The notes below the pieces were generated by a model. The model made no database searches. It saw only the letters and a list, made by a program, of their open reading frames with translations, and was not told where the DNA came from. Below are positions 2,789 to 13,648 of a stretch of 14,156 nt of DNA, piece after piece. The stretch lies in the IMG/VR virus record IMGVR_UViG_3300011960_000019; one strand, written 5' to 3'. Within the stretch, counting starts at the first letter, position 1. Every line of letters begins with the position of its first letter. The position numbers and the translations under genes were made by a program. The DNA is from a virus (Duplodnaviria; Heunggongvirae; Uroviricota; Caudoviricetes).

Positions 2789-2824
2789 ACAGCCATCCCG
2801 ATTTGACGATTCATGGAGGAAATA

Positions 2825-3148
2825 ATGTCGAACGAGATGGCAGGCGTAACGCCAGAGCAGGTAGAGCGCATTGCCGCTATCGTTGCGCGTGAAGTTGTCG
2901 GCAAATTAGGTAAGGAGTTACGTGAGGAAATTGGCCAGGAGGTCAACGACCAGCTCAAAACCTACTTTGGCGATATGACGCCTTCGCAACACAGCATTCA
3001 GCACTCCAACCTGGACAAACTACTTAATCGGCTAGACGCCATCTCCAGCGGGTTCTTTGGCGGCATTATCTCAAAGATAACGTCGTTCCTGATTACCGCG
3101 CTGCTGCTGGGTCTGGCCGCTTATGGCGTGAAGAATGGACTGCAATAA
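2825..3148 (+). CDS. Small membrane protein, putative holin or lysis regulator (107 aa)
   Basis: The GGAGG RBS at 2815-2819 favours the ATG at 2825 over 2813. It has a soluble helical N-terminus and one C-terminal hydrophobic segment (FFGGIISKITSFLITALLLGLAAYGV), and is the first gene of the lysis cassette. Holin function is inferred from position. Confidence 0.55.
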   Translation: MSNEMAGVTPEQVERIAAIVAREVVGKLGKELREEIGQEVNDQLKTYFGDMTPSQHSIQHSNLDKLLNRLDAISSGFFGGIISKITSFLITALLLGLAAYGVKNGLQ

Positions 3149-3161
3149 CAGGAGATCAAGG

Positions 3162-3854
3162 ATGAAAACTCCGAGAGGCATTCGTAATAACAACCCTGGC
3201 AACCTCGACAAAGGTTCGCCGTGGCAGGGGTTAATTGACAACCCTGCCGAACCGCGTTTCTGCACGTTCAAAGATCCCGTATGGGGCATTCGAGCGCTGG
3301 CAGTAACGCTCATTACCTACCACGACAAGCGCCGCGCGAAGGATGGCTCCAGCATCGATACGATCCGCGAAGTCATCGAACGCTGGGCGCCTCCGCATGA
3401 AAACAACACCGTAGCTTACGTGAACGAGGTCTCTAAAGCCGTTGGCGTCACCCCGGACATGATTATCGATCTGCACGACTACGACACTCTGCGTCCGCTG
3501 GTGGAGGCAATTGTCCGTCATGAAAATGGCCGTGGCCCGCTCAAAACGCCGAATACCTGGTATGCGGCAGAAGTTATTGAGGAAGGTCTGCGTCGCGCTG
3601 GTGTCGTTAAGCCGGTGAAAACCGTGAAGGCTGTTCCTGTAACCAAAGAGACTGCCGGTGCGACCGTTACGGCGGGAATTGGTCTGGCACAGCTGGCCGA
3701 CGTCATGCCACAGATCTCTGCGGCAATGGACAAGGCGCAGGGACACATCACCAGTGGTGATACGGTTCGGATCATCTTCGGTATCGCGACCATTGTGGTG
3801 GCCGGCTTTATCGCCTGGTCACAGGTGCGAAAACACCAGAACGGGATGGTCTGA
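3162..3854 (+). CDS. Probable endolysin (RGIRNNNPGN family, often annotated as structural protein P5-like) with a hydrophobic C-terminal extension
   Basis: AGGAG RBS at 3150-3154 and start MKTPRGIRNNNPGNL. Lysozyme-like family motifs are present (WGIRAL, IERWAPPHENNT, AIVRHENG). It sits directly upstream of a spanin pair and has the C-terminal TM-like segment IIFGIATIVVAGFIAW. Confidence 0.7.
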   Translation: MKTPRGIRNNNPGNLDKGSPWQGLIDNPAEPRFCTFKDPVWGIRALAVTLITYHDKRRAKDGSSIDTIREVIERWAPPHENNTVAYVNEVSKAVGVTPDMIIDLHDYDTLRPLVEAIVRHENGRGPLKTPNTWYAAEVIEEGLRRAGVVKPVKTVKAVPVTKETAGATVTAGIGLAQLADVMPQISAAMDKAQGHITSGDTVRIIFGIATIVVAGFIAWSQVRKHQNGMV

Positions 3855-3855
3855 T

Positions 3856-4107
3856 ATGACCGGCAGCCTATTTTCAAAGCTGAAGTTTGCTCTGATGACT
3901 CTGGCTGCCGTTCTTTTCGTGCTTGTCGGTGCTTATACGATGGGAGGTCGTGCGGCCCGGCAAGCAATCGAAGAGAAGGCCAGACAGGAGGACAGGAAAA
4001 GGCTTCAAAGCACAGTGGACGTCAAAAATGAGACACTTAATGAAGTGCGGCGGAAAGATGCTTCTGCTGTTCATCGCGAGCTGCATGATAAGTGGCTGCG
4101 TGATTAA
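3856..4107 (+). CDS. i-spanin (Rz-like), 83 aa
   Basis: The ATG is 1 nt after the lysin stop. It has an N-terminal TM helix (FALMTLAAVLFVLVGAY) followed by a charged helical periplasmic region, and its 3' end overlaps a lipoprotein gene in another frame. Confidence 0.78.
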   Translation: MTGSLFSKLKFALMTLAAVLFVLVGAYTMGGRAARQAIEEKARQEDRKRLQSTVDVKNETLNEVRRKDASAVHRELHDKWLRD

Positions 4108-4255
4108 GACACAGACCGTGGGTGTACAATTCTGCGATGTCGCAAATCCTATCTATGTGAGTAGAGAGGATTTTATGACCGAGGAAACAGAGCGGCAGCT
4201 GCTTATCCACAATACGATAGGTGAAAGGTTGTGTAAGTGGGAGCACCGGAGCTGA
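4058..4255 (+). CDS. o-spanin lipoprotein (Rz1-like), about 65 aa
   Basis: Signal peptide MLLLFIASCMISG|C with a lipobox and two further Cys in the mature part. It overlaps the i-spanin 3' end. The start could alternatively be at 4040 or 4028. Confidence 0.75.
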   Translation: MLLLFIASCMISGCVIKTQTVGVQFCDVANPIYVSREDFMTEETERQLLIHNTIGERLCKWEHRS

Positions 4256-4497: not shown

Positions 4498-4881
4498 ATG
4501 CTGAACGAGAAACGTTCTATACAAACTATTCGCGATTGCACGAGTATTATCGAAACTCATGTGCTGCATCAGCACAAGCTCGAAGTACGTAAGCTCAATA
4601 ACGACGCTATTGAACCTGAAGACTCACGCTTCATCGTTACCTTCAAAGACGATGTCGAGCGCGCCGGTGCAAGTGTGAAACCGTTGGCTGAAGCAATTTA
4701 CCTGAATGGTCGTGTTCGTTTTGTAGTGAAGCCAGCCAAACAGTACCCTGAGCTGTCTCGTTTTATCGAGGCTTTTTCGGAGGTTATTGAACATTCTATT
4801 CGCCGCTTCTTGCGTAATCATGGTAGCATTGTCAGTACGGTTAAGGCTGATGACTCTGCTACAAGATGGCTCCTACACTAG
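4498..4881 (+). CDS. Hypothetical protein (127 aa), upstream partner of the GNAT-like gene
   Basis: TAAGGTGG RBS before the ATG. The stop overlaps the next gene by 16 nt. No recognisable motif. Confidence 0.75.
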   Translation: MLNEKRSIQTIRDCTSIIETHVLHQHKLEVRKLNNDAIEPEDSRFIVTFKDDVERAGASVKPLAEAIYLNGRVRFVVKPAKQYPELSRFIEAFSEVIEHSIRRFLRNHGSIVSTVKADDSATRWLLH

Positions 4882-5615
4882 ATACCGCATATTCAAAAGA
4901 TCTAAGCGAGTTTCCTCATCAAGGGGAGACTCGTGTTGCTCGTTTTGGCTTTCTCATCAACGAAGCCTCCCTCTATAAAATCTCAGAAATTGAAATCATC
5001 GAGCCAGAAGATGACATTTGTCTGTATGTCTCTATGGAGCGAGTAGGTGCGCACGACCAGAGCGACCTGAGTGAATTTATCTTAGATCGAGCTGATGAAG
5101 ATGCCCCTGAAGAAGAGATCATTAAAGAGGCGCTCCAGTCCGGACTTCTGGACGAAAGCAAAAACACGATCGCAGGCAGGATAGCTCTGCGTGAATATAG
5201 TTTTGTTGAAGACGGCAATCAGATCGAATGTTACCAGGTAGCAGGGGTCGAAACCGTCAGAGCGCTTCGTCAGCGAGGATTGTGTCACCGTACCTATCTT
5301 TTCCTTCTTCATTGGTACGAGCATTTGGTCTGCGACGATAAACAAACCATTCCTGGCGCTAAGATCTGGGCTGGCCCTCTCATGCGTACCGGCGATGTGC
5401 GTATATACAATGCCAAAACAGAAACGTTCGAGGACGTGCTAGGTGAATACGGCATGGGCAAGAACACGGGTTTTTTACCTTGGAATCGTGGGTTACTGCT
5501 CGATCCCGAACTCAGTTCATGGCTGCCTAACAAAGTTCAGGTCAATGTACAGAAGTTCATTGTTCTAATCATCTCTCGTTGCTCAAGAGCACCCGTCGGC
5601 CTATACATTAAATAA
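4866..5615 (+). CDS. Putative GNAT-fold acetyltransferase (249 aa)
   Basis: YQVAGVETVRALRQRGLCHRTY resembles GNAT strand 4 plus the (Q/R)xxGx(G/A) acetyl-CoA loop. It is followed by LVCDDKQTIPGAKIW, which resembles the SDxxQTxxGxxxW pattern of phage-type GNATs. The N-terminal half is acidic. The ORF is confident; the function is tentative. Confidence 0.55.
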   Translation: MAPTLDTAYSKDLSEFPHQGETRVARFGFLINEASLYKISEIEIIEPEDDICLYVSMERVGAHDQSDLSEFILDRADEDAPEEEIIKEALQSGLLDESKNTIAGRIALREYSFVEDGNQIECYQVAGVETVRALRQRGLCHRTYLFLLHWYEHLVCDDKQTIPGAKIWAGPLMRTGDVRIYNAKTETFEDVLGEYGMGKNTGFLPWNRGLLLDPELSSWLPNKVQVNVQKFIVLIISRCSRAPVGLYIK

Positions 5616-5622
5616 ACAGTCT

Positions 5623-5645
5623 GGCGGTTGTGTGCCGCCTTCTCG
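5623..5645 (+). terminator. Possible weak intrinsic terminator after the GNAT-like gene
   Basis: GGCGGT-TGTGT-GCCGCC hairpin followed by TTCTC. Confidence 0.4.
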
Positions 5646-5810
5646 CCAAAAGTTGTTTACCTCTTCTCATTCTTAATCTCAAGATCCTCTCTATCTCGAT
5701 AATACCTACCATTTCACCTTTACACCGCAGCCGTAGGCATTTAGGCTATATCGCATATAAGAAAACAAGTTGTTTCATACGACAATAATTCACGCAAAGG
5801 GAACTATTCA

Positions 5811-6476
5811 ATGACTAGGATCATTGTGGTTGGCGGCACGAAGGGTGGCCCGGGTAAATCGACCGTTGCCCAGCAAATAGCGGTTTGCCTGAAAGTTAAA
5901 AAGAAAAAGAAAACCCAAGTTACCGACATCGACATCCAGCGCACCACTACCAGCTGGTGCGAAGACCGTCGACAGAATGAAGATCTCGATCTCATTCCTT
6001 TCGCTTACGTTCAGGAAGACGTCGTTAAGCATCTCAAATCGCTTCAGGGGCGCTTCGATTATGTGGTTGTAGACGCAGGGGGCTTCGACTCCGAAATCCA
6101 GCGACAAGCTATGCTGATGGCTGATGTTATCGTCATACCGCTGCGCCCTAAACGCCGTGACCTGAAATCGCTGCGCGACATCGACCCGATTATCGACAAT
6201 GTACGCAATGTGAACGAGAAGGTGAAAATACGTGCCGTTATCAACCAGTGCCCGTCACTACCTTCCCAGGTGTCGCGTATTCTGGCCGCCAAAGAAATCG
6301 TTGAGACGTTTGGTATCGAAGCTGCACCGGTCAATTTGTACAACCGTAACGTCTACGATGATGCAGAAGAGGCTGGTCGTTCTATCTTTGAAATGACTGG
6401 CGCCGAACGCGACAAGAAAGCAGAAGCCGAGTTTGAACAGTTTGTTGATTATATCTTGAGTCTGGAGGAAGAGTAA
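5811..6476 (+). CDS. parA: ParA family partition ATPase (short type Ib, no N-terminal HTH)
   Basis: Deviant Walker A GGTKGGPGKST, DIDIQ (A'), and VVVDAGG (Walker B) in 221 aa. Confidence 0.93.
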   Translation: MTRIIVVGGTKGGPGKSTVAQQIAVCLKVKKKKKTQVTDIDIQRTTTSWCEDRRQNEDLDLIPFAYVQEDVVKHLKSLQGRFDYVVVDAGGFDSEIQRQAMLMADVIVIPLRPKRRDLKSLRDIDPIIDNVRNVNEKVKIRAVINQCPSLPSQVSRILAAKEIVETFGIEAAPVNLYNRNVYDDAEEAGRSIFEMTGAERDKKAEAEFEQFVDYILSLEEE

Positions 6477-6835
6477 TGTCCATGAAGATGGGAGACCTTG
6501 CTAAGCGCAAAGAACCGGATGCTCCGGCCAAAAACAGCACGCCATTGCGCCAACCAGTCAGACCACAGGGCCGCCCGACTCGTGGGAAAGAGAAAATAAA
6601 GAGCCGTACCATGTCGCTGGAGGACGAATACTTCGATCTGCTGGAGATGATGAAATTCATCCCTCGCTTTGAGAAGTTCACCCGTTCTGACGTGATTCGT
6701 GCAGCCATTTACCATCTGGCAGAGAAGTCGCCGCAGGAAATCGAGGACATTGTGAAACTGAATGAGGCGATCACCGCTGCTGATGTCACGATGCGCACTG
6801 ACGAAATCAAGCGCGAGTTGATGAAAAAAAACTAA
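6476..6835 (+). CDS. Putative centromere-binding partner of ParA (ribbon-helix-helix-like, type Ib)
   Basis: The ATG overlaps the parA stop (TAATG). A flexible basic N-terminus is followed by KSRTMSLEDEYFDLL...FTRSDVIRAAI, which fits the RHH strand-helix-helix pattern. Confidence 0.72.
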   Translation: MSMKMGDLAKRKEPDAPAKNSTPLRQPVRPQGRPTRGKEKIKSRTMSLEDEYFDLLEMMKFIPRFEKFTRSDVIRAAIYHLAEKSPQEIEDIVKLNEAITAADVTMRTDEIKRELMKKN

Positions 6836-6837
6836 TA

Positions 6838-6870
6838 ATGTGGGCTGAAGCAGCCCATGTTTTTTTATTT
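6838..6870 (+). terminator. Rho-independent terminator of the par operon
   Basis: TGGGCTG-AAG-CAGCCCA stem followed by TGTTTTTTTATTT. Confidence 0.8.
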
Positions 6871-6887
6871 AAATAGGAATGGTAATT

Positions 6888-7637
6888 ATGCATTCATTTG
6901 CATTTGCTTTCAAAAACATCCTCAAGACCATGATGTTTATACTGGGAATATTAAATGACTATTTCTCTGTGGGTTTAAGGAGAAAAGATATTAAAGAAAA
7001 AATCAGTGAACTCAATGAAAAAAAAGAAAGATTAAAGCGCGAAGAAATTATCATTGATTTATACAAGAAAAAGCTCGCCTCTAGCAAGGGGAAAGTTGAT
7101 GACAAAATCAGAGAAAAAATCGCTCAACATATTGCCAGAGAGTTGGAAGATAACCTTGATGATGAAATTCTGCGACATGATGTTTTCATGAAGATAAGTG
7201 AGGCAGGAGAACAGGTTGAAGTTATAATTCATGAAAGAAAAGTCAGTGAGCAGGTAAATAAAAAAGAAACTGTAGTGAATTTGTTTTTATTGCATGAAAA
7301 GAATAAATTATTTAAAGCTAAGGCATTATCTGCTTTTTTTATAATTATAAACTTAGTGATGGTTGCAACTTTGAATCTACCAGCTTGGTCTTTTGTTATA
7401 GGTTGTATCATTATCTTTCTAATCGAGTTAAAAGATCAACTGCTTACCTTTCGTGTCTCTAAAGGATATTTTGGCACAAGTGCATATGAAGCGATTCAGT
7501 TGCTTAAATTTATCAGAGAAAATTCCGATAAATTCGACTCAGATGATAATGACGGCAACCCACGACGTATATTAAATCCAAAGGACATAACAAAAAAATC
7601 AGACAACTTATTTGAAAAAGGATGGCAGAATGTTTGA
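6888..7637 (+). CDS. AT-rich hypothetical membrane protein A (coiled-coil N-terminus, two adjacent TM helices)
   Basis: AGGA at 6875-6878 suits the ATG at 6888 (6879 is too close; later Mets are possible). It has a K/E-rich helical region and hydrophobic segments SAFFIIINLVMVATL and PAWSFVIGCIIIFLIEL. Spot GC counts are 19/60 (6901-6960) and 12/60 (7261-7320). Confidence 0.8.
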   Translation: MHSFAFAFKNILKTMMFILGILNDYFSVGLRRKDIKEKISELNEKKERLKREEIIIDLYKKKLASSKGKVDDKIREKIAQHIARELEDNLDDEILRHDVFMKISEAGEQVEVIIHERKVSEQVNKKETVVNLFLLHEKNKLFKAKALSAFFIIINLVMVATLNLPAWSFVIGCIIIFLIELKDQLLTFRVSKGYFGTSAYEAIQLLKFIRENSDKFDSDDNDGNPRRILNPKDITKKSDNLFEKGWQNV

Positions 7638-8052
7638 CGCTGACGCCATCACTAAACGATTAAATCAGTGCCTTGATCTACTTTTCCTCAAGCAGCCCTT
7701 AAGAACTGTATTCGGAATGCTGGTGGGGTTCATTATTTTTGTTTTAGTTTACTCATTTAGGCTGGCGATAGCTCAAAGTCTTTTTGAAGTAGATCGTGTA
7801 CATTACACTGCATGTTTCGTTATCGGTCTTTTGATTGTTCACACAAGAACAATTATTGACGCTTTCCAAGGCACAGCTGTTGATGAAGAAATAAATAGCA
7901 TGATCGGTGTTGTTATGAAACAGCCGCACTTATCCGATCTACAAAAAAATATGATGATCGCTGAAATACTTCAAAAGGAAATTGCTGCTATAGGCCAAAA
8001 GAGATTAGATATGGCCTCACAAGAAATAACCGAGAAAAAGACAACTGATTAA
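7630..8052 (+). CDS. AT-rich hypothetical membrane protein B (two TM helices, about 140 aa)
   Basis: AAAGGA RBS at 7617-7622; the ATG at 7630 overlaps the stop of gene A. Hydrophobic segments are VFGMLVGFIIFVLVYSF and YTACFVIGLLIV. Confidence 0.8.
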   Translation: MFDADAITKRLNQCLDLLFLKQPLRTVFGMLVGFIIFVLVYSFRLAIAQSLFEVDRVHYTACFVIGLLIVHTRTIIDAFQGTAVDEEINSMIGVVMKQPHLSDLQKNMMIAEILQKEIAAIGQKRLDMASQEITEKKTTD

Positions 8053-8059
8053 ATTAATT

Positions 8060-8113
8060 GCCTGCGTCTGTATATTAAATATTAATTAGCTAATTAGATA
8101 TACAGACGCAGGC
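8060..8113. repeat. 16-bp perfect inverted repeat enclosing a 22-nt AT-rich spacer that contains a 14-bp palindrome
   Basis: GCCTGCGTCTGTATAT (8060-8075) pairs with ATATACAGACGCAGGC (8098-8113). The inner palindrome is TAATTAGCTAATTA (8083-8096). Confidence 0.95.
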
Positions 8114-8148
8114 TTTGAACTCCCAGACACATTCCCTTCCGATTCTAC

Positions 8149-8177
8149 TTCCAAAAACAGTCTCCAGTCGCTATGAT
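8149..8177 (+). promoter_or_regulatory. Putative sigma70 promoter for the replication operon
   Basis: TTCCAA - 17 bp - TATGAT, 44 nt upstream of the ATG at 8222. Confidence 0.55.
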
Positions 8178-8189
8178 TCGCCCATTGTG

Positions 8190-8214
8190 GTAAGTAAGTA
8201 GCTACCTATCATGC
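8190..8214 (+). promoter_or_regulatory. Operator-like repeated motif, copy 2
   Basis: GTAAGTA-AGTAGC-TACCTAT-CATGC lies between the predicted -10 and the GAGG RBS. Confidence 0.55.
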
Positions 8215-8221
8215 GAGGCAC

Positions 8222-8947
8222 ATGAGCCAGATCTTCTTTAACATTATTAACAACGACCAGTACGACTTCATGACCGAGTGGGACACCACAGTCATGGACA
8301 AGTGGGTGGCCGAGAATATTGGGCTGTCACGCTGCAAGGATGAGGCGGAGCTGTTCGAGACAAAGTGGTTTGATTACCGCGACATGCACCCGCTTATGGC
8401 CACATGCCTCTTCACTGAGGCATACAAGCGCCAGTACTCATACATTATGCTGTCGCATGGCCGCGAACACTATGAGACGGCCCAATTCACTACCGGTTTG
8501 AAACGTGTGCCGTATCAGGAGCTGTCGACGGCCAACAAAACGTCTCTCTGGAAAGCACGCCAGTTTGCCGACCAGTACTGCTGCTCTTATGACTACTTCA
8601 TTTCTACCGTTCTTTCCGCAGCTGCACGCCGTCTGTGGGACAAATTACCTCGTCCCCAGCATCTCTGGCAGCCCGAGCTGATCGAGATATTCGAAGAGAA
8701 GTTAGCCAAACGCGCTGTAACCCGTCTGGATGACTCGCTGGTGAGTTTTAAGCATCTGGGAGACATGCAGCACGACCCGATTCAAGAACGCTATTTTGAG
8801 TGGGTTCTGGAGCGTCTGCGTGGCATTACCCGAGACAAGCGCGTCCGCATCATCTTCTCCGCTGTCTGGTTGATGGAAATCGTGCCTGAGCGTGTGGTTT
8901 ACACGCACTTCCCGGAAGAACTGGAAGAAGCACGGCGATTCTGTTGA
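8222..8947 (+). CDS. Conserved phage hypothetical protein upstream of the helicase (possible replication or loader role)
   Basis: 241 aa ORF with a GAGG RBS and backbone-like composition. It is the first gene of the helicase-primase cluster. The function is a positional inference only. Confidence 0.8.
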   Translation: MSQIFFNIINNDQYDFMTEWDTTVMDKWVAENIGLSRCKDEAELFETKWFDYRDMHPLMATCLFTEAYKRQYSYIMLSHGREHYETAQFTTGLKRVPYQELSTANKTSLWKARQFADQYCCSYDYFISTVLSAAARRLWDKLPRPQHLWQPELIEIFEEKLAKRAVTRLDDSLVSFKHLGDMQHDPIQERYFEWVLERLRGITRDKRVRIIFSAVWLMEIVPERVVYTHFPEELEEARRFC

Positions 8948-9007
8948 TCCCCTATTTGGCTTTTTTAGTATTAGAAAACAAATTGTTTAAGCACCAAAGG
9001 AAAGCAC

Positions 9008-10348
9008 ATGACCGAACTTTGCCACACAGGACGAGGGTTGTCTGAAGAGTTCGACGACGATTTCCAGAATCGACTCGCAGCCTACTTCTGTCGCGACCAT
9101 GAATTTCTGACTCGCGCCGGTGATCTGGTTGCGCCAAACCAGTTCTCCAATGCGGCTAACGCCATTCTGGTGAACATGGTGTCGGGCTACTACAGAATGT
9201 ATAAGAGTGCACCATCATCGTCGGCCATCCTCGACATGCTCAAACGCGCCAAACGCGATAAGACTATCCGCGAAGAGCTATTCCCCGACGTCGTTGAGGC
9301 GTTTAAGCGGATTCTCGCTGAGAAGCTGTCAGACACGGTGTACATGGTCGACCAAGTCGCGACATTCGCCAAAAGCGTGGCGTTCGACGATGCGCTAATC
9401 AAAGCGGCTGAGATGAAGGAGAAGGGCGATTTCCAGGGCGCGATGGCAATCATGGCCAAAGTCCAGCAAATCGGCTCTAACGAAGCGACCGGCATCTACG
9501 ATTACTTCTCTGAGTCAGCAGAGCGTTACAAGTCGCGTGAGTACGAGGCATCCGATGATTACGTGCCAAACAGCATCACTACGGGTCTTCCCCTGCTCGA
9601 TAAACTGCTTTACCAGAAAGGCTGGGCCAAGCGTGAAATGGTGCTGTTCATGGGATTCGCGAAGTCTGGTAAATCGACGGCGATGGGGGAGTTCTCGATC
9701 AACGCTACGCTTGCCGGTTACAACGTCCTGTATCTGTCGCTGGAAGTACACACCTCTATTCTGTCAGACCGTTTTGACGCCCGTCTGTCTGAGACCGAAA
9801 TGTCCAAGCTGGTGGAACGCCGCGACGATGTCCATCGCAAACTTGCAGAGCTGGGCGCGACGAAAGGCGTGGGGAGTTTGTGGATTGTAGAGCGACCGTC
9901 CGGAAGCATGTCGCCTGCAGATCTGGATCGTATGTTGGGCAGTATGAAAGCCAATGGCATGATCCCCGACATGGTCGTGGTCGACTACGCCGACCTGATG
10001 CGTGCCAGCTACGACCTCCGCGACGACCGCGCCAACATTCGTAGCATCTACACTGACCTGCGTGCGCTGTACGACAAACACAACGTTGCCGGTATCACTG
10101 CATCGCAGACCAACAGGGAAGGTGGCGCTTCTGAGGTGGCCACAATGATGCACGCAGCGGACAACATCGAGAAGGTGCGTATCGCCGACCTCGTTATCAC
10201 TATCAACAAAACAGAAGAGGAAGAAGCAAAAGGCGAGGCAAGACTCTACTTTGCTGGTTCACGTAACCAGAAGGGCGGGGTGAGCATCCGTGTCAAACAG
10301 AACCTGGAACAAATGCGATTTATCGAAAGAATCATGGATGTTTTATAA
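9008..10348 (+). CDS. dnaB: Replicative DNA helicase, DnaB/SF4 family
   Basis: ITTGLPLLDKLL..GW, Walker A GFAKSGKS, H1a YLSLE, Walker B VVVDYAD, H3 TASQTNR, and a C-terminal SRNQ arginine-finger-like motif. Confidence 0.92.
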   Translation: MTELCHTGRGLSEEFDDDFQNRLAAYFCRDHEFLTRAGDLVAPNQFSNAANAILVNMVSGYYRMYKSAPSSSAILDMLKRAKRDKTIREELFPDVVEAFKRILAEKLSDTVYMVDQVATFAKSVAFDDALIKAAEMKEKGDFQGAMAIMAKVQQIGSNEATGIYDYFSESAERYKSREYEASDDYVPNSITTGLPLLDKLLYQKGWAKREMVLFMGFAKSGKSTAMGEFSINATLAGYNVLYLSLEVHTSILSDRFDARLSETEMSKLVERRDDVHRKLAELGATKGVGSLWIVERPSGSMSPADLDRMLGSMKANGMIPDMVVVDYADLMRASYDLRDDRANIRSIYTDLRALYDKHNVAGITASQTNREGGASEVATMMHAADNIEKVRIADLVITINKTEEEEAKGEARLYFAGSRNQKGGVSIRVKQNLEQMRFIERIMDVL

Positions 10349-10498: not shown

Positions 10499-11614
10499 GT
10501 GAGCGACCTGAAAGAGTTACTGACCGAGCTGGATTTTGAACAATGGCTCGATACTGAAGGCATTATCTATCGTCGCGGCGGAGTGAGTACGCGCGGGCGA
10601 GAAATTAACATCAAAGAGTGTCCAGTATGCGGCAGCTCAAACTGGAAAGTGTATTTCAACCTCTCTCATGGCGTAGGTAAATGTTTTGCGGGCGATCACC
10701 CCGAAGAGATTCAGTTTAACAAGCTGGTTTTTCTTAAGCACTACAGTGGCAAATCACGCCGGGATTTTGAGGCATACGTTCAGAATGCCTTAATCTCGCA
10801 GGGGTGGGCGCCGAAGAAAGAAGAAGTGGTGTTATCCATTGGTGTTGAGCTTGAGGGGCCAGTTGCTCTTCCTCGCCACTATGAACTGCCTATCGATGGG
10901 CGACTTCCTGATTATCTCGTTAAGCGTCTCATAACGCCGGAAATGGCCAGATACTTTGACCTTCGTTATTGCGTGGAAGGTAAGCACGCGTATGTCGATC
11001 CCTACACCGACCAGGTGAAGGGGCAGGTGTTTGACATGCGCATTCTCATACCGGTTTACGATCTGGATGGTGTCATGAAGACATTCCAGGGGCGTGATGT
11101 CACCGGCACAGCAGAACGTCGCTACCTTTTCCCCATGCAGCTGCCAGCCTCCGGAAAGTTTCTCTACAACGGCCATAACGCGGTCGGAAAGCAGACGGTC
11201 GTCGTGTGTGAAGGTGCGTTTGATGTCATGGGGGTTAAGCGCGCCATATTCGAAGAAGAGACGTTGCGAGAGTACGTCGAGCCAATAGGTACGTTCGGGA
11301 TGCACTTATCCGGAAACACAACGGAAGATGCAGAAGACCAGCTGGGCGCGTTCCTGACATTGAAGGCCCGTGGCCTGCGAAACGTCATTATGATGTGGGA
11401 TAGCGAGAAGCAAGCGATCCGCAACACGATGTCGGCTGCCAGACGGATCGCCAGTCTGGGCATCAATGTTAAAGTCGCCTGCTTGGGAGAGGAAGGACTT
11501 GACCCGGGCGACGCGACGCCAGAGCAAATCCTCAAGGCTTATTATCGTGCTAAACCATATACCAAACAGCTTGAATTGTTAGCCAAAATTAAAGGAATAG
11601 CAGCATTACTTTGA
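10499..11614 (+). CDS. Phage DNA primase (zinc-binding domain plus TOPRIM)
   Basis: GTG start. CPVC...C/H zinc-binding region, FQGR and YLF catalytic-core motifs, TOPRIM VVCEGAFD, MMWDSE and DPGD. Adjacent to the helicase. Confidence 0.88.
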   Translation: MSDLKELLTELDFEQWLDTEGIIYRRGGVSTRGREINIKECPVCGSSNWKVYFNLSHGVGKCFAGDHPEEIQFNKLVFLKHYSGKSRRDFEAYVQNALISQGWAPKKEEVVLSIGVELEGPVALPRHYELPIDGRLPDYLVKRLITPEMARYFDLRYCVEGKHAYVDPYTDQVKGQVFDMRILIPVYDLDGVMKTFQGRDVTGTAERRYLFPMQLPASGKFLYNGHNAVGKQTVVVCEGAFDVMGVKRAIFEEETLREYVEPIGTFGMHLSGNTTEDAEDQLGAFLTLKARGLRNVIMMWDSEKQAIRNTMSAARRIASLGINVKVACLGEEGLDPGDATPEQILKAYYRAKPYTKQLELLAKIKGIAALL

Positions 11615-12859
11615 GTTAACTTCGGAAATATAGACGTTCACAGAGAACGTCTTTACCTCAGTTTTGAAGTTGTCTGTCATAACCGCAAGGTAGGCATTAT
11701 TGCTTTCATTGAATCGCTTCAAAATAATCTGGACATTGTCTGTGCAGACAAAGGATGTTGCCTGATTTCCTGCATTGTCTGTATTATCTTGTAGAAAGTT
11801 ACAGTCAATTTTTCCATTATTAGCTTTGAAGGTGGCAACGTCACTCTGCCAAGTAAATGTCGCATTTACACCTTTATCTATTGATTTTGCAATAAGACGA
11901 TTGCTATCAATTTTATTCTTTGGTTGTTTTACAGACGTGCGAAAATAACCTAGTCTCTTCATATCATTAAGTGAGTCGCAGCCAATTTTTTCGCCTTTGT
12001 CACAAGATGTCTGATAAAGTTCACTTGCTTTTTGGTAGTCTTTTTTTACGCCCAATCCGTTTAAATACAAATATCCTAAGTTTGCCAAGGCCGCCTCATT
12101 GCCTTTATCTGCCGCCTTTTCTAAGTATGAGCGGGCAAGAGAATAATTCTTTGGAGTGCCTTCACCATGAATGTACATATAACCAAGATTTGACATACCC
12201 ATAGGATCTCCAAGATCTGCTGCCTTTTTGTACCATTTAATGGCTTCAGCATCATCTCGTTTTGTTCCAATCCCTTCATCATACAATGAGGCCAGGCTAG
12301 TAATAGCTTTTACATAGTTTTTATCAGCCGCTTTTTTATACAATTCAAAAGTTTTCTTACTATTCTTAGGGACTCCGTTTCCAGACAGATATTTCGCACC
12401 TAAATAATACATAGACTCTGGACTGCCGGCAGCCACAGCAAGTTTATAGTATTTAATAGCTAAAGCAGAGTCCGGGTTACCTACCAGGCCTTTTTCATAA
12501 AAAACTGCAAGATTATTGTAGGCAGCACCTTCTACCGCATTGTCAGCAATTTTATATAACTGTTCAGCCCTACGGTAATCCTTGTTGACGCCATATCCAA
12601 ATGTGTACATTAATGCGAGGGCGTGAGAGGCTGGCTTATCTCCTTTTTCCACTGCCGATGTGAGCCATTTTTTTGCTTGAGGATAGTTCTTTTCGAAGCC
12701 GTTTATGCCTTTTAGATAGTTTACCCCTAAATCACGCTGCGAAATGATATCTCCACCTGCGGCAGATTCAATAAGTCTCTGATTTTCATTAGCTACCGCC
12801 GAACCAGAATTTAGAAACAGTGACAATGCGAGTAGTGCTGTTGAGTTGATGAATTTCAT
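11606..12859 (-). CDS. Secreted Sel1-like repeat (SLR) protein with about 7 repeats and a C-terminal beta-rich domain
   Basis: Signal peptide MKFINSTALLALSLFLNSGSAVA. Seven 36-aa repeats follow the pattern A...LG..Y..G.GV.KD...A...Y.KAA..G. GC is low (15/60 at 12301-12360). It is the only long minus-strand gene and overlaps the primase stop by 9 nt. Confidence 0.9.
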   Translation of the reverse strand: MKFINSTALLALSLFLNSGSAVANENQRLIESAAGGDIISQRDLGVNYLKGINGFEKNYPQAKKWLTSAVEKGDKPASHALALMYTFGYGVNKDYRRAEQLYKIADNAVEGAAYNNLAVFYEKGLVGNPDSALAIKYYKLAVAAGSPESMYYLGAKYLSGNGVPKNSKKTFELYKKAADKNYVKAITSLASLYDEGIGTKRDDAEAIKWYKKAADLGDPMGMSNLGYMYIHGEGTPKNYSLARSYLEKAADKGNEAALANLGYLYLNGLGVKKDYQKASELYQTSCDKGEKIGCDSLNDMKRLGYFRTSVKQPKNKIDSNRLIAKSIDKGVNATFTWQSDVATFKANNGKIDCNFLQDNTDNAGNQATSFVCTDNVQIILKRFNESNNAYLAVMTDNFKTEVKTFSVNVYISEVNSK

Positions 12860-13045: not shown

Positions 13046-13648
13046 ATGAAAGAAGACATTCAAAAATCCGTGACAGAGATGATTGATAAATCGGGCGTGG
13101 AAATCGACGCTGACGAACGCCAGAAAATTGTTGGTGAAGCCATCGATGCGGCGTTGGAGCATATTGCACAGGTGCTGAAGACTGTATCGCTTGCAGAAGG
13201 TTCTTCTTACATGCGGGTATGGGTTCGCTTTGGAGAGTCCCATATCGAACGCTTCATGAAGCGCCTGGACGAGAACGAAGAGGGGGAGATGGGCAAAGAT
13301 CCGGATTCTGTTTACGAGTTCAAGCGTACCCGCAGCTGGTGGAAGCTGAAAGATGAGGATTCCGAAGACGGTGAAATCATCGACTTCGAGCCAGGCGACC
13401 CGGACTCAGGCTTTGCACATACGCTGGGCAAGATAGTGATTCGTCTGGAGAACGGCGTCATCGTTCGTGCCAGCGGTATCAAGCATAAGTACCTGGATGA
13501 AATCTGGAACAATCAGGAGAAGTATCGTGGACGCATCGTCGAGGTTCACTGCCATGAGAAAACGCCAGACGGTAGTTTACGCCACCCACGTCTGAAGTGG
13601 CCGAAATGTCTGCGAGATACCGAAGACCGTATTGGAGATAAAGACTGA
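13046..13648 (+). pseudogene. Apparent in-frame fusion of the N-terminus of an unrelated phage protein (aa 1 to about 65) with the C-terminal part of an ATP-dependent DNA ligase
   Basis: Ligase motifs IV (EGEMGK, 13280-13297), V (WWKLK) and the OB-fold/VI region (GSLRHPR) are present. Motifs I (KxDG), III and IIIa are absent from the 200 aa ORF. Confidence 0.75.

What the first reader, a model, noticed from the sequence alone, without database searches (positions are those of the whole stretch)
6888..8052. AT-rich two-gene membrane cassette at an apparent insertion hotspot: candidate defence or superinfection-exclusion system
Seen: two translationally coupled genes have much lower GC (spot counts 12-25 per 60 nt versus 31/60 in dnaB at 9121-9180) and are wedged between the par terminator and a large inverted repeat. 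Protein A has a long K/E coiled region, a two-TM hairpin and a conserved-looking GYFGTSAYEA tail; protein B has two TMs and a helical tail. I recognise no domain. Established: prophage variable loci are enriched in small membrane-acting abortive-infection and exclusion systems, and two-TM effectors such as SLATT are common. Inference: this may be an undescribed heteromeric membrane sensor/effector or pore.
Basis: partly seen in the sequence, partly recalled or inferred. Interest (0 to 1): 0.72.

Follow-up and report, generated by a model that had tools for sequence, protein, structure and literature searches.

The report
Paired membrane genes in defence slot
Two overlapping, AT-rich genes for small inner-membrane proteins fill a swap-in/swap-out slot of an SSU5-type phage-plasmid that in sister elements holds proven anti-phage genes. 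They belong to a large, unnamed, always-paired family, so they are a strong but untested candidate for a new membrane-acting phage-defence or exclusion system.

Summary
Gene A (6888-7637, 249 aa) and gene B (7630-8052, 140 aa) overlap by 8 nt. Their GC is 0.34 against 0.505 for the backbone. They lie between the parB terminator and a 16-bp-arm hairpin.

The window is an SSU5-type phage-plasmid, 99.9% identical to Enterobacter hormaechei pMS-37c. In 82 related loci the parB-to-phrog_2500 interval is a true cargo slot:
- empty in 4 loci
- PD-T4-3 in 24
- DUF2971/PDC-S31 in 22 (5 of them alongside the A-B pair)
- KAP NTPase/PDC-S49 in 8
- PD-T7-5 in 2
- the A-B pair in 13, including phage SSU5 itself

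A's C-terminal core defines an unnamed family of at least 607 clusters at 50% identity, with no Pfam, NCBIfam, PADLOC or PDB match. Every context I inspected has a B homologue overlapping A's stop codon. Outside phage-plasmids the pair sits next to Tiamat, a complete Retron III-A and a SIR2 gene, and inside P2-like and lambdoid prophages.

It is not a detectable SLATT_1 relative (hhalign probability below 2%). Function is untested. I favour an anti-phage membrane module: about 0.45 abortive infection and about 0.2 entry exclusion.

This scan reached the same reading earlier for at least seven E. coli phage-plasmid windows, so the family is not new to the scan.

The parts
6476..6835 (+). parB-like partition gene (phrog_5111), the conserved left flank of the cargo slot
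   Evidence: PHROG match at 6.3e-79. It is 89-99% identical across 76 related loci while the cargo behind it changes.
6837..6871 (+). Intrinsic terminator after parB (11-bp stem, 3-nt loop, T-run), the left edge of the cargo
   Evidence: Terminator scan. SSU5-type variants lack it; there gene A starts 1-2 nt after the parB stop.
6888..7637 (+). Gene A, 249 aa. It has a hydrophobic N-terminal helix, a variable K/E-rich helical region (about 30-125), a conserved core made of a long helical hairpin with two membrane spans (about 129-192), the juxtamembrane motif YR[IV]xKGxFGxNxxEA, an acidic loop, and a C-terminal tail with a conserved Gly.
   Evidence: phrog_22270, 2.4e-90; AF2 pLDDT 94-96 for residues 130-210.
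7630..8052 (+). Gene B, 140 aa. It has an N-terminal helix, two membrane spans (about 27-47 and 59-75) and a helical charged C-terminal tail. It is the obligate downstream partner of A.
   Evidence: phrog_17322, 4.4e-60; partners of distant A homologues match the B profile at 1e-24 to 9e-15.
8060..8113 (.). Conserved backbone hairpin (16-bp perfect arms, A/T-rich centre) marking the right edge of the slot. It is not cargo.
   Evidence: The same hairpin is present in empty sites and next to every other cargo type. The window copy differs from the common form by paired changes on both arms.
8222..8947 (+). Conserved right-flank gene (phrog_2500, function unknown), lying ahead of the DnaB-like helicase
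   Evidence: PHROG match at 1e-108. It is 87-99% identical in the 83 enterobacterial-type related loci used to map the slot, and 64% in the divergent L088.

Best explanation
A and B form a two-protein, inner-membrane anti-phage module that the plasmid-prophage carries as exchangeable cargo and expresses while resident.

Proposed working, with each step marked:
1. Topology (inferred from positive-inside charge counts). Both proteins insert as helical hairpins with their soluble parts in the cytoplasm.
2. Effector (inferred). A's conserved core is the effector. This core is the long two-span hairpin plus the invariant juxtamembrane R189/G193/G196/E201 motif.
3. Trigger specificity (inferred). 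A's N-terminal half sets what is sensed. It is a coiled coil here and two extra membrane spans in SSU5-type variants.
4. Partner role (inferred). B is the obligate partner that holds A inactive or co-assembles with it.
5. Outcome (inferred). Infection by another phage releases the assembly, which permeabilises or depolarises the membrane and aborts the infection.

Shown here: the genes are real. They are strictly paired and inherited as a unit. They are swappable cargo in a slot otherwise filled by known defence genes, and they recur beside defence systems in unrelated elements. Everything about activity is inference.
For: 1. The slot is a defence hotspot. In 82 loci the parB-to-phrog_2500 interval spans 202-2214 bp. 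It holds nothing in 4 loci, PD-T4-3 in 24 (PADLOC 5e-24), DUF2971/PDC-S31 in 22 (3e-41), KAP NTPase/PDC-S49 in 8 (6.5e-24), PD-T7-5 in 2 (6e-138), or A-B in 13. PD-T4-3 and PD-T7-5 are experimentally selected E. coli defences (Vassallo et al. 2022, my own knowledge). A DUF2971 protein is listed as validated system DS-45 in PMC13092281 (supplements).

2. Contexts outside phage-plasmids point the same way.
- In the Kluyvera chromosome the pair is two genes from TmtA of Tiamat (PADLOC E=0).
- In L101 the pair lies directly upstream of a complete Retron III-A: PRTase 5e-76, WH 4e-29, RT 1e-139.
- In L096, a P2-like prophage, the pair follows the CI repressor, is followed by bPH and SIR2 genes (2e-65), and lies near putAbiC.

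3. Pairing is strict. All eight extra contexts have a 133-149 aa gene overlapping A's stop by 1-11 nt. The four that were not used to build the B profile match it at 1e-24 to 9e-15. A and B divergences correlate (r=0.91; 0 of 5000 permutations reach that value).

4. The pair diverges fast against a stable backbone. Within the slot, A is 37-41% and B 31-58% identical to the window's copies, while the flanks stay 88-99%.

5. The cargo looks foreign. GC is 0.34 against 0.505, and the pair's GC is lower than its flanks in all seven other contexts that have measurable flanks.

6. Expression in the resident state is plausible. In SSU5-type variants A starts 1-2 nt after the parB stop, inside the partition operon.

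7. Base rates are favourable. Six of 8 randomly picked unknown-function loci from P4 defence hotspots protected against phages (PMC13586616). Curing an SSU5-like Klebsiella plasmid raised the plating efficiency of three phages by 1-2 logs, with the responsible gene unknown (PMC8969562).
Against: - No experiment exists for any family member. The held literature has no mention of SSU5_035/036 or of the RefSeq accessions.
- No detectable homology to any known defence protein (PADLOC 2.0), Pfam family, NCBIfam model or solved structure.
- Fold searches return only generic helical hairpins.
- No promoter-like site was found on the + strand between 5600 and 8300, and in this window a terminator separates parB from A. 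Expression here is therefore unproven.
- Guilt by association cannot separate abortive infection from entry exclusion or from an addiction module.
- The sampled loci are not de-replicated, so the counts overstate independence.
Confidence: 0.45

Rival explanations
1. Superinfection exclusion. A and B sit in the inner membrane of the lysogen and block genome entry of incoming phages, for example by interfering with the channel or host factor used for DNA translocation. The cell is not killed.
For: - Both products are small inner-membrane proteins with cytoplasmic helical parts.
- They are carried by temperate elements only: phage-plasmids, P2-like and lambdoid prophages, and islands.
- In SSU5-type variants they lie in an operon that is expected to be on in the resident state.
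- Known exclusion proteins such as T4 Imm, P22 SieA and HK97 gp15 are likewise small prophage or phage membrane proteins (my own knowledge).
Against: - Known exclusion proteins are mostly single genes, whereas a strict two-gene unit with a long cytoplasmic coiled coil looks more like a sensor plus effector.
- The slot's other occupants are intracellular defences, not exclusion proteins.
- No homology to any Sie or Imm protein was found, although I did not check whether those families are in the libraries searched.
Confidence: 0.2
2. Addiction (toxin-antitoxin or post-segregational killing) module that stabilises the plasmid-prophage. A would be a membrane-damaging toxin and B its protein antidote, with no primary role against phages.
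For: - Two small overlapping genes lie next to the partition operon.
- A neighbouring variable position upstream of parA carries a GNAT/DUF1778 toxin-antitoxin pair in a Citrobacter relative.
- Small hydrophobic toxins are a known class (Hok, TisB, GhoT; my own knowledge).
Against: - The pair also occurs in integrated prophages and chromosomal islands, where plasmid stabilisation is irrelevant.
- Empty slots and replacement by defence genes show that the backbone does not need it.
- A, at 249 aa with a large soluble part, is unlike the 30-60 aa membrane toxins.
- Many toxin-antitoxin pairs also act as abortive-infection systems, so this rival partly overlaps the main reading.
Confidence: 0.1
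3. Another accessory membrane function unrelated to phage conflict. Examples are lysis timing (holin/antiholin-like), envelope-stress handling, or immunity against a membrane-targeting bacteriocin or contact-dependent toxin.
For: - In the lambdoid prophage L099 the pair lies between the replication/nuclease genes and HNH-terminase, a place where lysis or moron genes can sit.
- No catalytic or nucleic-acid-binding domain is recognisable.
- The ESM Atlas feature search for A gave only weak leads, the best named one being TraX-like at 0.84, below the 0.9 level the tool treats as meaningful.
Against: - The window already has a complete lysis cassette at 2813-4255.
- The pair is dispensable for the phage-plasmid (empty slots) and also occurs in non-phage islands.
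- Nothing in the neighbourhoods points to a cognate secreted toxin.
Confidence: 0.2

Closest known systems
PHROG families phrog_22270 and phrog_17322 (function unknown), including Salmonella phage SSU5 genes SSU5_035/SSU5_036
   Same: Direct sequence membership: 2.4e-90 and 4.4e-60. The SSU5 pair sits at the same slot, with B 37% identical over its full length and the A core 39% identical.
   Different: The SSU5-type A is 214 aa. It has two extra N-terminal membrane spans instead of the long K/E coiled coil, it abuts parB without a terminator, and it is followed by a DUF2971 gene.
Lambda RexA/RexB prophage abortive-infection pair
   Same: Both are two-gene modules carried by a temperate element, expressed in the lysogen, and include an inner-membrane component thought to collapse membrane potential. 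In L096 the pair even sits right after the CI repressor gene. This analogy rests on my own knowledge of Rex.
   Different: RexB has four membrane spans and RexA is cytoplasmic. Here both proteins have a two-span hairpin. No sequence or fold similarity was found.
SLATT-type two-span membrane effectors of conflict systems (CBASS, Pycsar and others)
   Same: The overall plan matches: helices flanking a two-span hairpin in a small protein found in defence contexts.
   Different: - No Pfam SLATT hit for A, for B or for 38 diverse A homologues.
- hhalign against an alignment of seven SLATT_1 domains gives probability below 2%.
- No nucleotide-signal synthase is attached or adjacent.
- The A family has its own invariant juxtamembrane motif.
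Small membrane superinfection-exclusion proteins (T4 Imm, P22 SieA, HK97 gp15)
   Same: These are small inner-membrane proteins made by a resident or infecting phage to keep other phages out (my own knowledge). The carrier type and cellular location match.
   Different: Those are single genes without a conserved partner. No homology was detected, and their mode of action (blocking entry) is only one of the options open here.

Membership tests
phrog_22270 / phrog_17322 (PHROGs v4, unknown function) | Full-length profile match to both families | tested here: met
   A matches at 2.4e-90 over profile positions 23-255 of 255. B matches at 4.4e-60 over 1-136 of 136.
SLATT two-span effector superfamily | Sequence or profile similarity to a SLATT family | tested here: not met
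   - No Pfam hit at E<=0.1 for A or B.
- No SLATT family among the hits of 38 A homologues or 20 B homologues.
- hhalign of A3, A4, A5 and A6 against seven SLATT_1 domains gives probability 0.1-1.9%.
- Only SLATT_1 was tested profile-to-profile.
SLATT two-span effector superfamily | Fusion to, or operon with, a nucleotide-signal generating or sensing domain (SMODS, SLOG, TIR and similar) | tested here: not met
   The cassette holds only A and B. All ten contexts inspected show the same two genes as one unit.
Lambda Rex-type abortive-infection pair | A four-span membrane protein (RexB) plus a soluble cytoplasmic partner (RexA) | tested here: not met
   A and B each have a two-span hairpin; neither is soluble and neither has four spans. 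A sequence comparison with Rex proteins was not run, and I did not verify whether PADLOC 2.0 holds Rex models.
Any system in PADLOC-DB 2.0.0 | Profile match to a known or candidate defence protein | tested here: not met
   B has no hit at E<=1. A's only hit is LeoBC at 0.0044 (14 bits) inside the K/E-rich helices, which I judge compositional. No consistent hit appears among 38 A homologues.
Anti-phage defence system (operational definition) | Recurrent location in defence hotspots or islands | tested here: met
   - The SSU5 slot is shared with PD-T4-3, PD-T7-5, DUF2971 and KAP NTPase genes.
- Elsewhere the pair lies beside Tiamat, Retron III-A and SIR2.
Anti-phage defence system (operational definition) | Expression lowers phage plating efficiency or progeny in a naive host | not testable with these tools
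   This needs cloning and plaque assays. No published test was found.
Type II-like toxin-antitoxin / addiction module | One product is toxic alone and is neutralised by the other | not testable with these tools
   Only the two-small-overlapping-genes layout is met. Toxicity was not assayed.

The most novel reading that the evidence does not exclude
The pair is the founding example of a widespread, previously unnamed two-component membrane immune effector. The family has at least 607 clusters at 50% identity and spans enterobacterial phage-plasmids, P2-like and lambdoid prophages, chromosomal islands and at least one cyanobacterium. It would have its own conserved juxtamembrane motif and a mode of sensing, such as detecting phage genome entry or envelope perturbation through A's variable N-terminal half, that is unlike Rex, SLATT or Zorya-type systems.
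Probability: 0.3. Interest if true: 0.75.

Novelty: new variant of a known kind. Interest (0 to 1): 0.55.

Why it matters
If the pair protects against phages, it would add a broadly distributed, very compact (1.2 kb) membrane-acting immune module to the known repertoire. It would also put a function on two PHROG families and several hundred unannotated protein clusters. In addition, it would mark the parB-proximal slot of SSU5-type phage-plasmids as a defence-exchange site. These elements are common in clinical Klebsiella, Enterobacter, Salmonella and E. coli, so this bears on phage therapy and on competition between mobile elements. The strict pairing, the invariant R/G/G/E motif and the variable N-terminal region give clear handles for mutagenesis and structural work.

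Tried and rejected
- Complex prediction of A core (118-249) with B, both as alignments: score 0.19 and 0.09 against a mark of 0.32. The tool returns no verdict, so this counts neither for nor against binding.
- Foldseek of the A model against PDB: best E=1.2, nothing usable.
- ESM Atlas structure search: all TM scores at or below 0.41.
- VIA-align wide search: Z at or below 9.3, all generic long helical hairpins (designed bundles, ESCRT-III, YaxB/XaxA and similar). This is below the noise level of about 13 that the tool quotes for helical models.
- Profile searches of PDB sequences: none for A; only E of 0.17 or worse for B.
- ESM Atlas feature search: for A the best named lead was TraX-like at 0.84, below the meaningful range, and I rejected it. 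B's neighbours are all unnamed clusters of its own family.
- PADLOC LeoBC hit on A (0.0044, residues 33-136): rejected as coiled-coil composition.
- A versus B profile comparison: unrelated, probability 0.7%.
- The genome search with the A-core profile: 0 of 401 genomes of the class, and 1 marginal hit (7.9e-4, inside a 466-aa frame, probably spurious) among 401 genomes of the family. The pair is therefore rare in species-representative genomes. The tool's loose first look may also miss short membrane proteins.
- DefensePredictor systems DS-33 (GNAT pair) and DS-37 (single gene), which a 2025 preprint reports in Salmonella SSU5 phage-plasmids: neither is the A-B pair. The A/B motifs are absent from that paper's supplementary tables, some of which are truncated in the held copy.
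- The Klebsiella Kp1604 p2 record (OK644452) is not in the held collections, so I could not see what its slot carries.
- Literature searches for the gene tags or accessions, and for similar two-gene membrane systems, returned nothing relevant.

Full report
**What the window is.** The window carries a tail fibre with a gp38-like adhesin, a lysis cassette, parA and a parB-like gene. It also carries a DnaB-like helicase, a primase and a truncated ligase. Region 5811-9000 is 99.9% identical to Enterobacter hormaechei plasmid pMS-37c (NZ_CP053193). Its flanks are about 90% identical to Salmonella phage SSU5, but only 61% of the query is covered there; the gap is exactly the region of the finding. 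The element is an SSU5-type phage-plasmid.

**The observation.** Gene A (6888-7637, 249 aa) and gene B (7630-8052, 140 aa) overlap by 8 nt (ATGTTTGA). RefSeq annotates both with the same coordinates in pMS-37c. Cassette GC is 0.343 against 0.505 for the backbone, and GC3 is 0.31/0.35 against 0.56-0.67. An intrinsic terminator (6837-6861 plus a T-run) follows parB. An inverted repeat with 16 perfect pairs (8060-8113) follows B. Both proteins match PHROG families of unknown function end to end (phrog_22270 and phrog_17322).

**The slot.** I fetched 85 loci around homologues of the downstream gene (phrog_2500) from IMG/VR and GTDB genomes. I then located parA, parB, A, B and phrog_2500 in each. 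With the window and three annotated records, 82 loci have both flanks.

The parB-to-phrog_2500 distance ranges from 202 to 2214 bp, while the flanks stay 83-100% identical (59-68% in the divergent L088). Clustering the ORFs in the interval and scanning representatives gives these counts:

| Cargo in the slot | Loci |
|---|---|
| Empty | 4 |
| GIY-YIG protein matching PD-T4-3 (5e-24) | 24 |
| DUF2971 / PDC-S31 (3e-41): 13 alone, 4 with another gene, 5 behind an A-B pair | 22 |
| 374-aa unknown protein | 16 |
| KAP NTPase / PDC-S49 (6.5e-24) | 8 |
| PD-T7-5 (6e-138) | 2 |
| Singleton unknowns | 2 |
| A-B pair | 13 |

All cargo has lower GC than the backbone (0.31-0.48). In PLSDB, 516 plasmids match the region and 75 carry an A homologue by tblastn, nearly all about 110-kb non-mobilisable plasmids of Klebsiella, Escherichia, Enterobacter, Cronobacter, Citrobacter and Salmonella.

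The loci are not de-replicated, so these are occupancy figures, not counts of events. A 2025 preprint that ran DefenseFinder on SSU5-group elements also lists PD-T4-3 and PD-T7-5 among their defences, but it does not describe this slot.

**Borders.** Alignment of the junctions shows that the hairpin right of B is backbone. It is present about 30 nt after the parB stop in empty sites and to the right of every cargo type. The window's copy differs from the common form by changes on both arms that keep the pairing. Cargo therefore enters between the parB stop and this hairpin.

Two layouts of the A-B pair exist. In the window and its relatives a terminator separates parB from A. In SSU5-type variants A begins 1-2 nt after the parB stop, which puts it in the partition operon. 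No sigma-70-like site was found on the + strand in 5600-8300, so how the window's copy is transcribed is open.

**The family.** Phage SSU5 itself carries the pair (SSU5_035/036). Its A core is 39% identical to the window's and its B is 37% identical. Word-indexed searches found only phage-plasmid-sized contigs.

An exhaustive HMMER search with a profile of the A core (residues 118-249) found 607 clusters at 50% identity with E<=1e-3, and 111 with E<=1e-10. The domain is always C-terminal in proteins of about 160-340 aa. One member is from a cyanobacterium.

In 137 aligned members the invariant or nearly invariant positions are R189, G193, G196, E201 and G245, within the motif YR[IV]xKGxFGxNxxEA...FIxxNxDxIDFxDxxG. 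The N-terminal half varies in length and kind: a K/E coiled coil here and two extra membrane spans in SSU5-type proteins.

No member of either family hits Pfam, NCBIfam or PADLOC in a meaningful way. No solved structure is related by sequence.

**Pairing.** In every further context read, a 133-149 aa gene overlaps A's stop by 1-11 nt. Those contexts are L090, L094, L095, L096, L097, L098, L099 and L101. The four partners not used to build the B profile match it at 1e-24 to 9e-15. Pairwise divergence of the A core and of B across 14 pairs correlates at r=0.91, and 0 of 5000 label permutations reach that value. The two genes are therefore inherited as one unit. Shared ancestry alone would give this result, so it does not show physical contact.

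**Contexts outside phage-plasmids.**
- In Kluyvera ascorbata the pair lies in a chromosomal island two genes from TmtA of Tiamat (PADLOC E=0). Antirestriction, RadC and CbeA genes are nearby.
- In L101 it lies directly upstream of a complete Retron III-A and near an integrase.
- In L096 it follows the CI repressor of a P2-like prophage. It is followed by bPH and SIR2 genes, with putAbiC at the locus edge.
- In L099 it lies in a lambdoid prophage, between the replication/nuclease genes and HNH-terminase.
- Representative genomes rarely carry it: 0 of 401 in the class, and one marginal hit among 401 in the family. That fits sporadic mobile cargo.

**Structure.** With a 137-sequence alignment, AlphaFold2 models A as all-helical (mean pLDDT 79.5). 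The core at residues 130-210 scores 94-96. It is a long hairpin (helices 129-162 and 167-192) followed by a short helix (199-211) and a disordered tail. B is modelled less confidently (pLDDT 69.6) as two membrane helices plus a long C-terminal helix.

Hydropathy and charge counts place the Lys/Arg-rich segments on both sides of each hairpin. This suggests cytoplasmic N- and C-terminal parts and short periplasmic loops; it is an inference from the positive-inside rule.

Fold searches return only generic helical hairpins. Profile-profile comparison with seven SLATT_1 domains taken from genomes gives probability below 2%.

**Interpretation.** The best-supported reading is an anti-phage module acting at the inner membrane. 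Three things support it:
- the company the pair keeps, both in the slot and elsewhere;
- its strict two-gene unit and its fast divergence against a stable backbone;
- published base rates for unknown genes in such hotspots (PMC13586616: 6 of 8 protected).

I favour an abortive-infection mechanism in which A's conserved hairpin and juxtamembrane motif form the effector, A's variable N-terminal half sets the trigger, and B controls or completes the assembly (0.45). Entry exclusion (0.2), an addiction module (0.1) and an unrelated membrane function (0.2) remain open. None of these can be separated without experiments.

**Relation to earlier work in this scan.** A sequence look-up shows that follow-up agents examined the E. 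coli version of this pair in at least seven other windows. They reached the same reading, with lambda RexAB or SLATT as the closest analogues. This report agrees and adds the following:
- a slot census with empty sites and named alternative cargoes;
- the finding that the right-hand hairpin is backbone;
- the size of the A family (607 clusters) and its invariant motif;
- the Tiamat, Retron III-A and SIR2 neighbourhoods;
- a negative profile-profile test against SLATT_1;
- the two operon layouts.

**Verdict.** This is a real, well-delimited cargo cassette of an unnamed family. It is a good experimental target, but its function is still inferred from context only.

Noticed in passing
window 8060-8113; same element in L042, L043, L046, L078 and all other slot loci: The hairpin right of the cargo slot is conserved backbone, present even when the slot is empty. 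Its arms show paired (compensatory) changes between lineages, which suggests selection on the structure. Candidate roles are a par-operon terminator, a partition site or a recombination anchor.
   Followed up: partly
L033:4689-5813:- (also L022, L037, L016, L062 and others); L007:4961-5638:-; L088:5002-5748:-: Other occupants of the same slot have no Pfam, PADLOC or NCBIfam match. One is a 374-aa protein present in about 16 of 82 loci, sometimes split into two ORFs; the other two are singletons of 225 and 248 aa. By the same logic they are further defence candidates.
   Followed up: partly
window 11606-12859 (- strand): A second low-GC island (0.39) encodes a 417-aa protein with a signal-peptide-like N-terminus and seven Sel1 repeats (Pfam 4.8e-57; phrog_8741). 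It is convergent with the primase gene and looks like another cargo gene.
   Followed up: no
window 4498-5615; L003:1-580: The two-gene unit upstream of parA (phrog_2594 and phrog_3307, no Pfam hit) is conserved in SSU5. A Citrobacter relative carries a GNAT/DUF1778 toxin-antitoxin pair next to parA at that side. This hints at a second variable position. The GNAT pair resembles the kind validated as DS-33 in PMC13092281.
   Followed up: no
window 13046-13648; compare L097:14783-16105: The ligase-like ORF is only 200 aa and matches just the C-terminal part of the phage ATP-dependent ligase profile (positions 379-507 of 634). A related phage-plasmid has a 440-aa ligase at the equivalent place, so the window's copy looks truncated or fused.
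   Followed up: no
L087 and L088 (GTDB genome contigs): SSU5-type contigs are filed under metagenome bins labelled Bacillota and Candidatus Fimivivens. L087 is 94% identical in the flank gene to enterobacterial elements, so it is probably a binning artefact. L088 is a genuinely divergent relative (64%) with its own unknown cargo.
   Followed up: no
P0005 (JGI record of a 234-aa A homologue): One source names an A homologue 'DNA gyrase/topoisomerase IV subunit A'. Nothing supports this; it is most likely a compositional match to the K/E-rich helices.
   Followed up: no
L001:6387-7538 versus window 9008-10348: RefSeq calls the DnaB-like helicase of pMS-37c from an internal start (383 aa). The open frame, and the SSU5 annotation, give 446 aa.
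   Followed up: no
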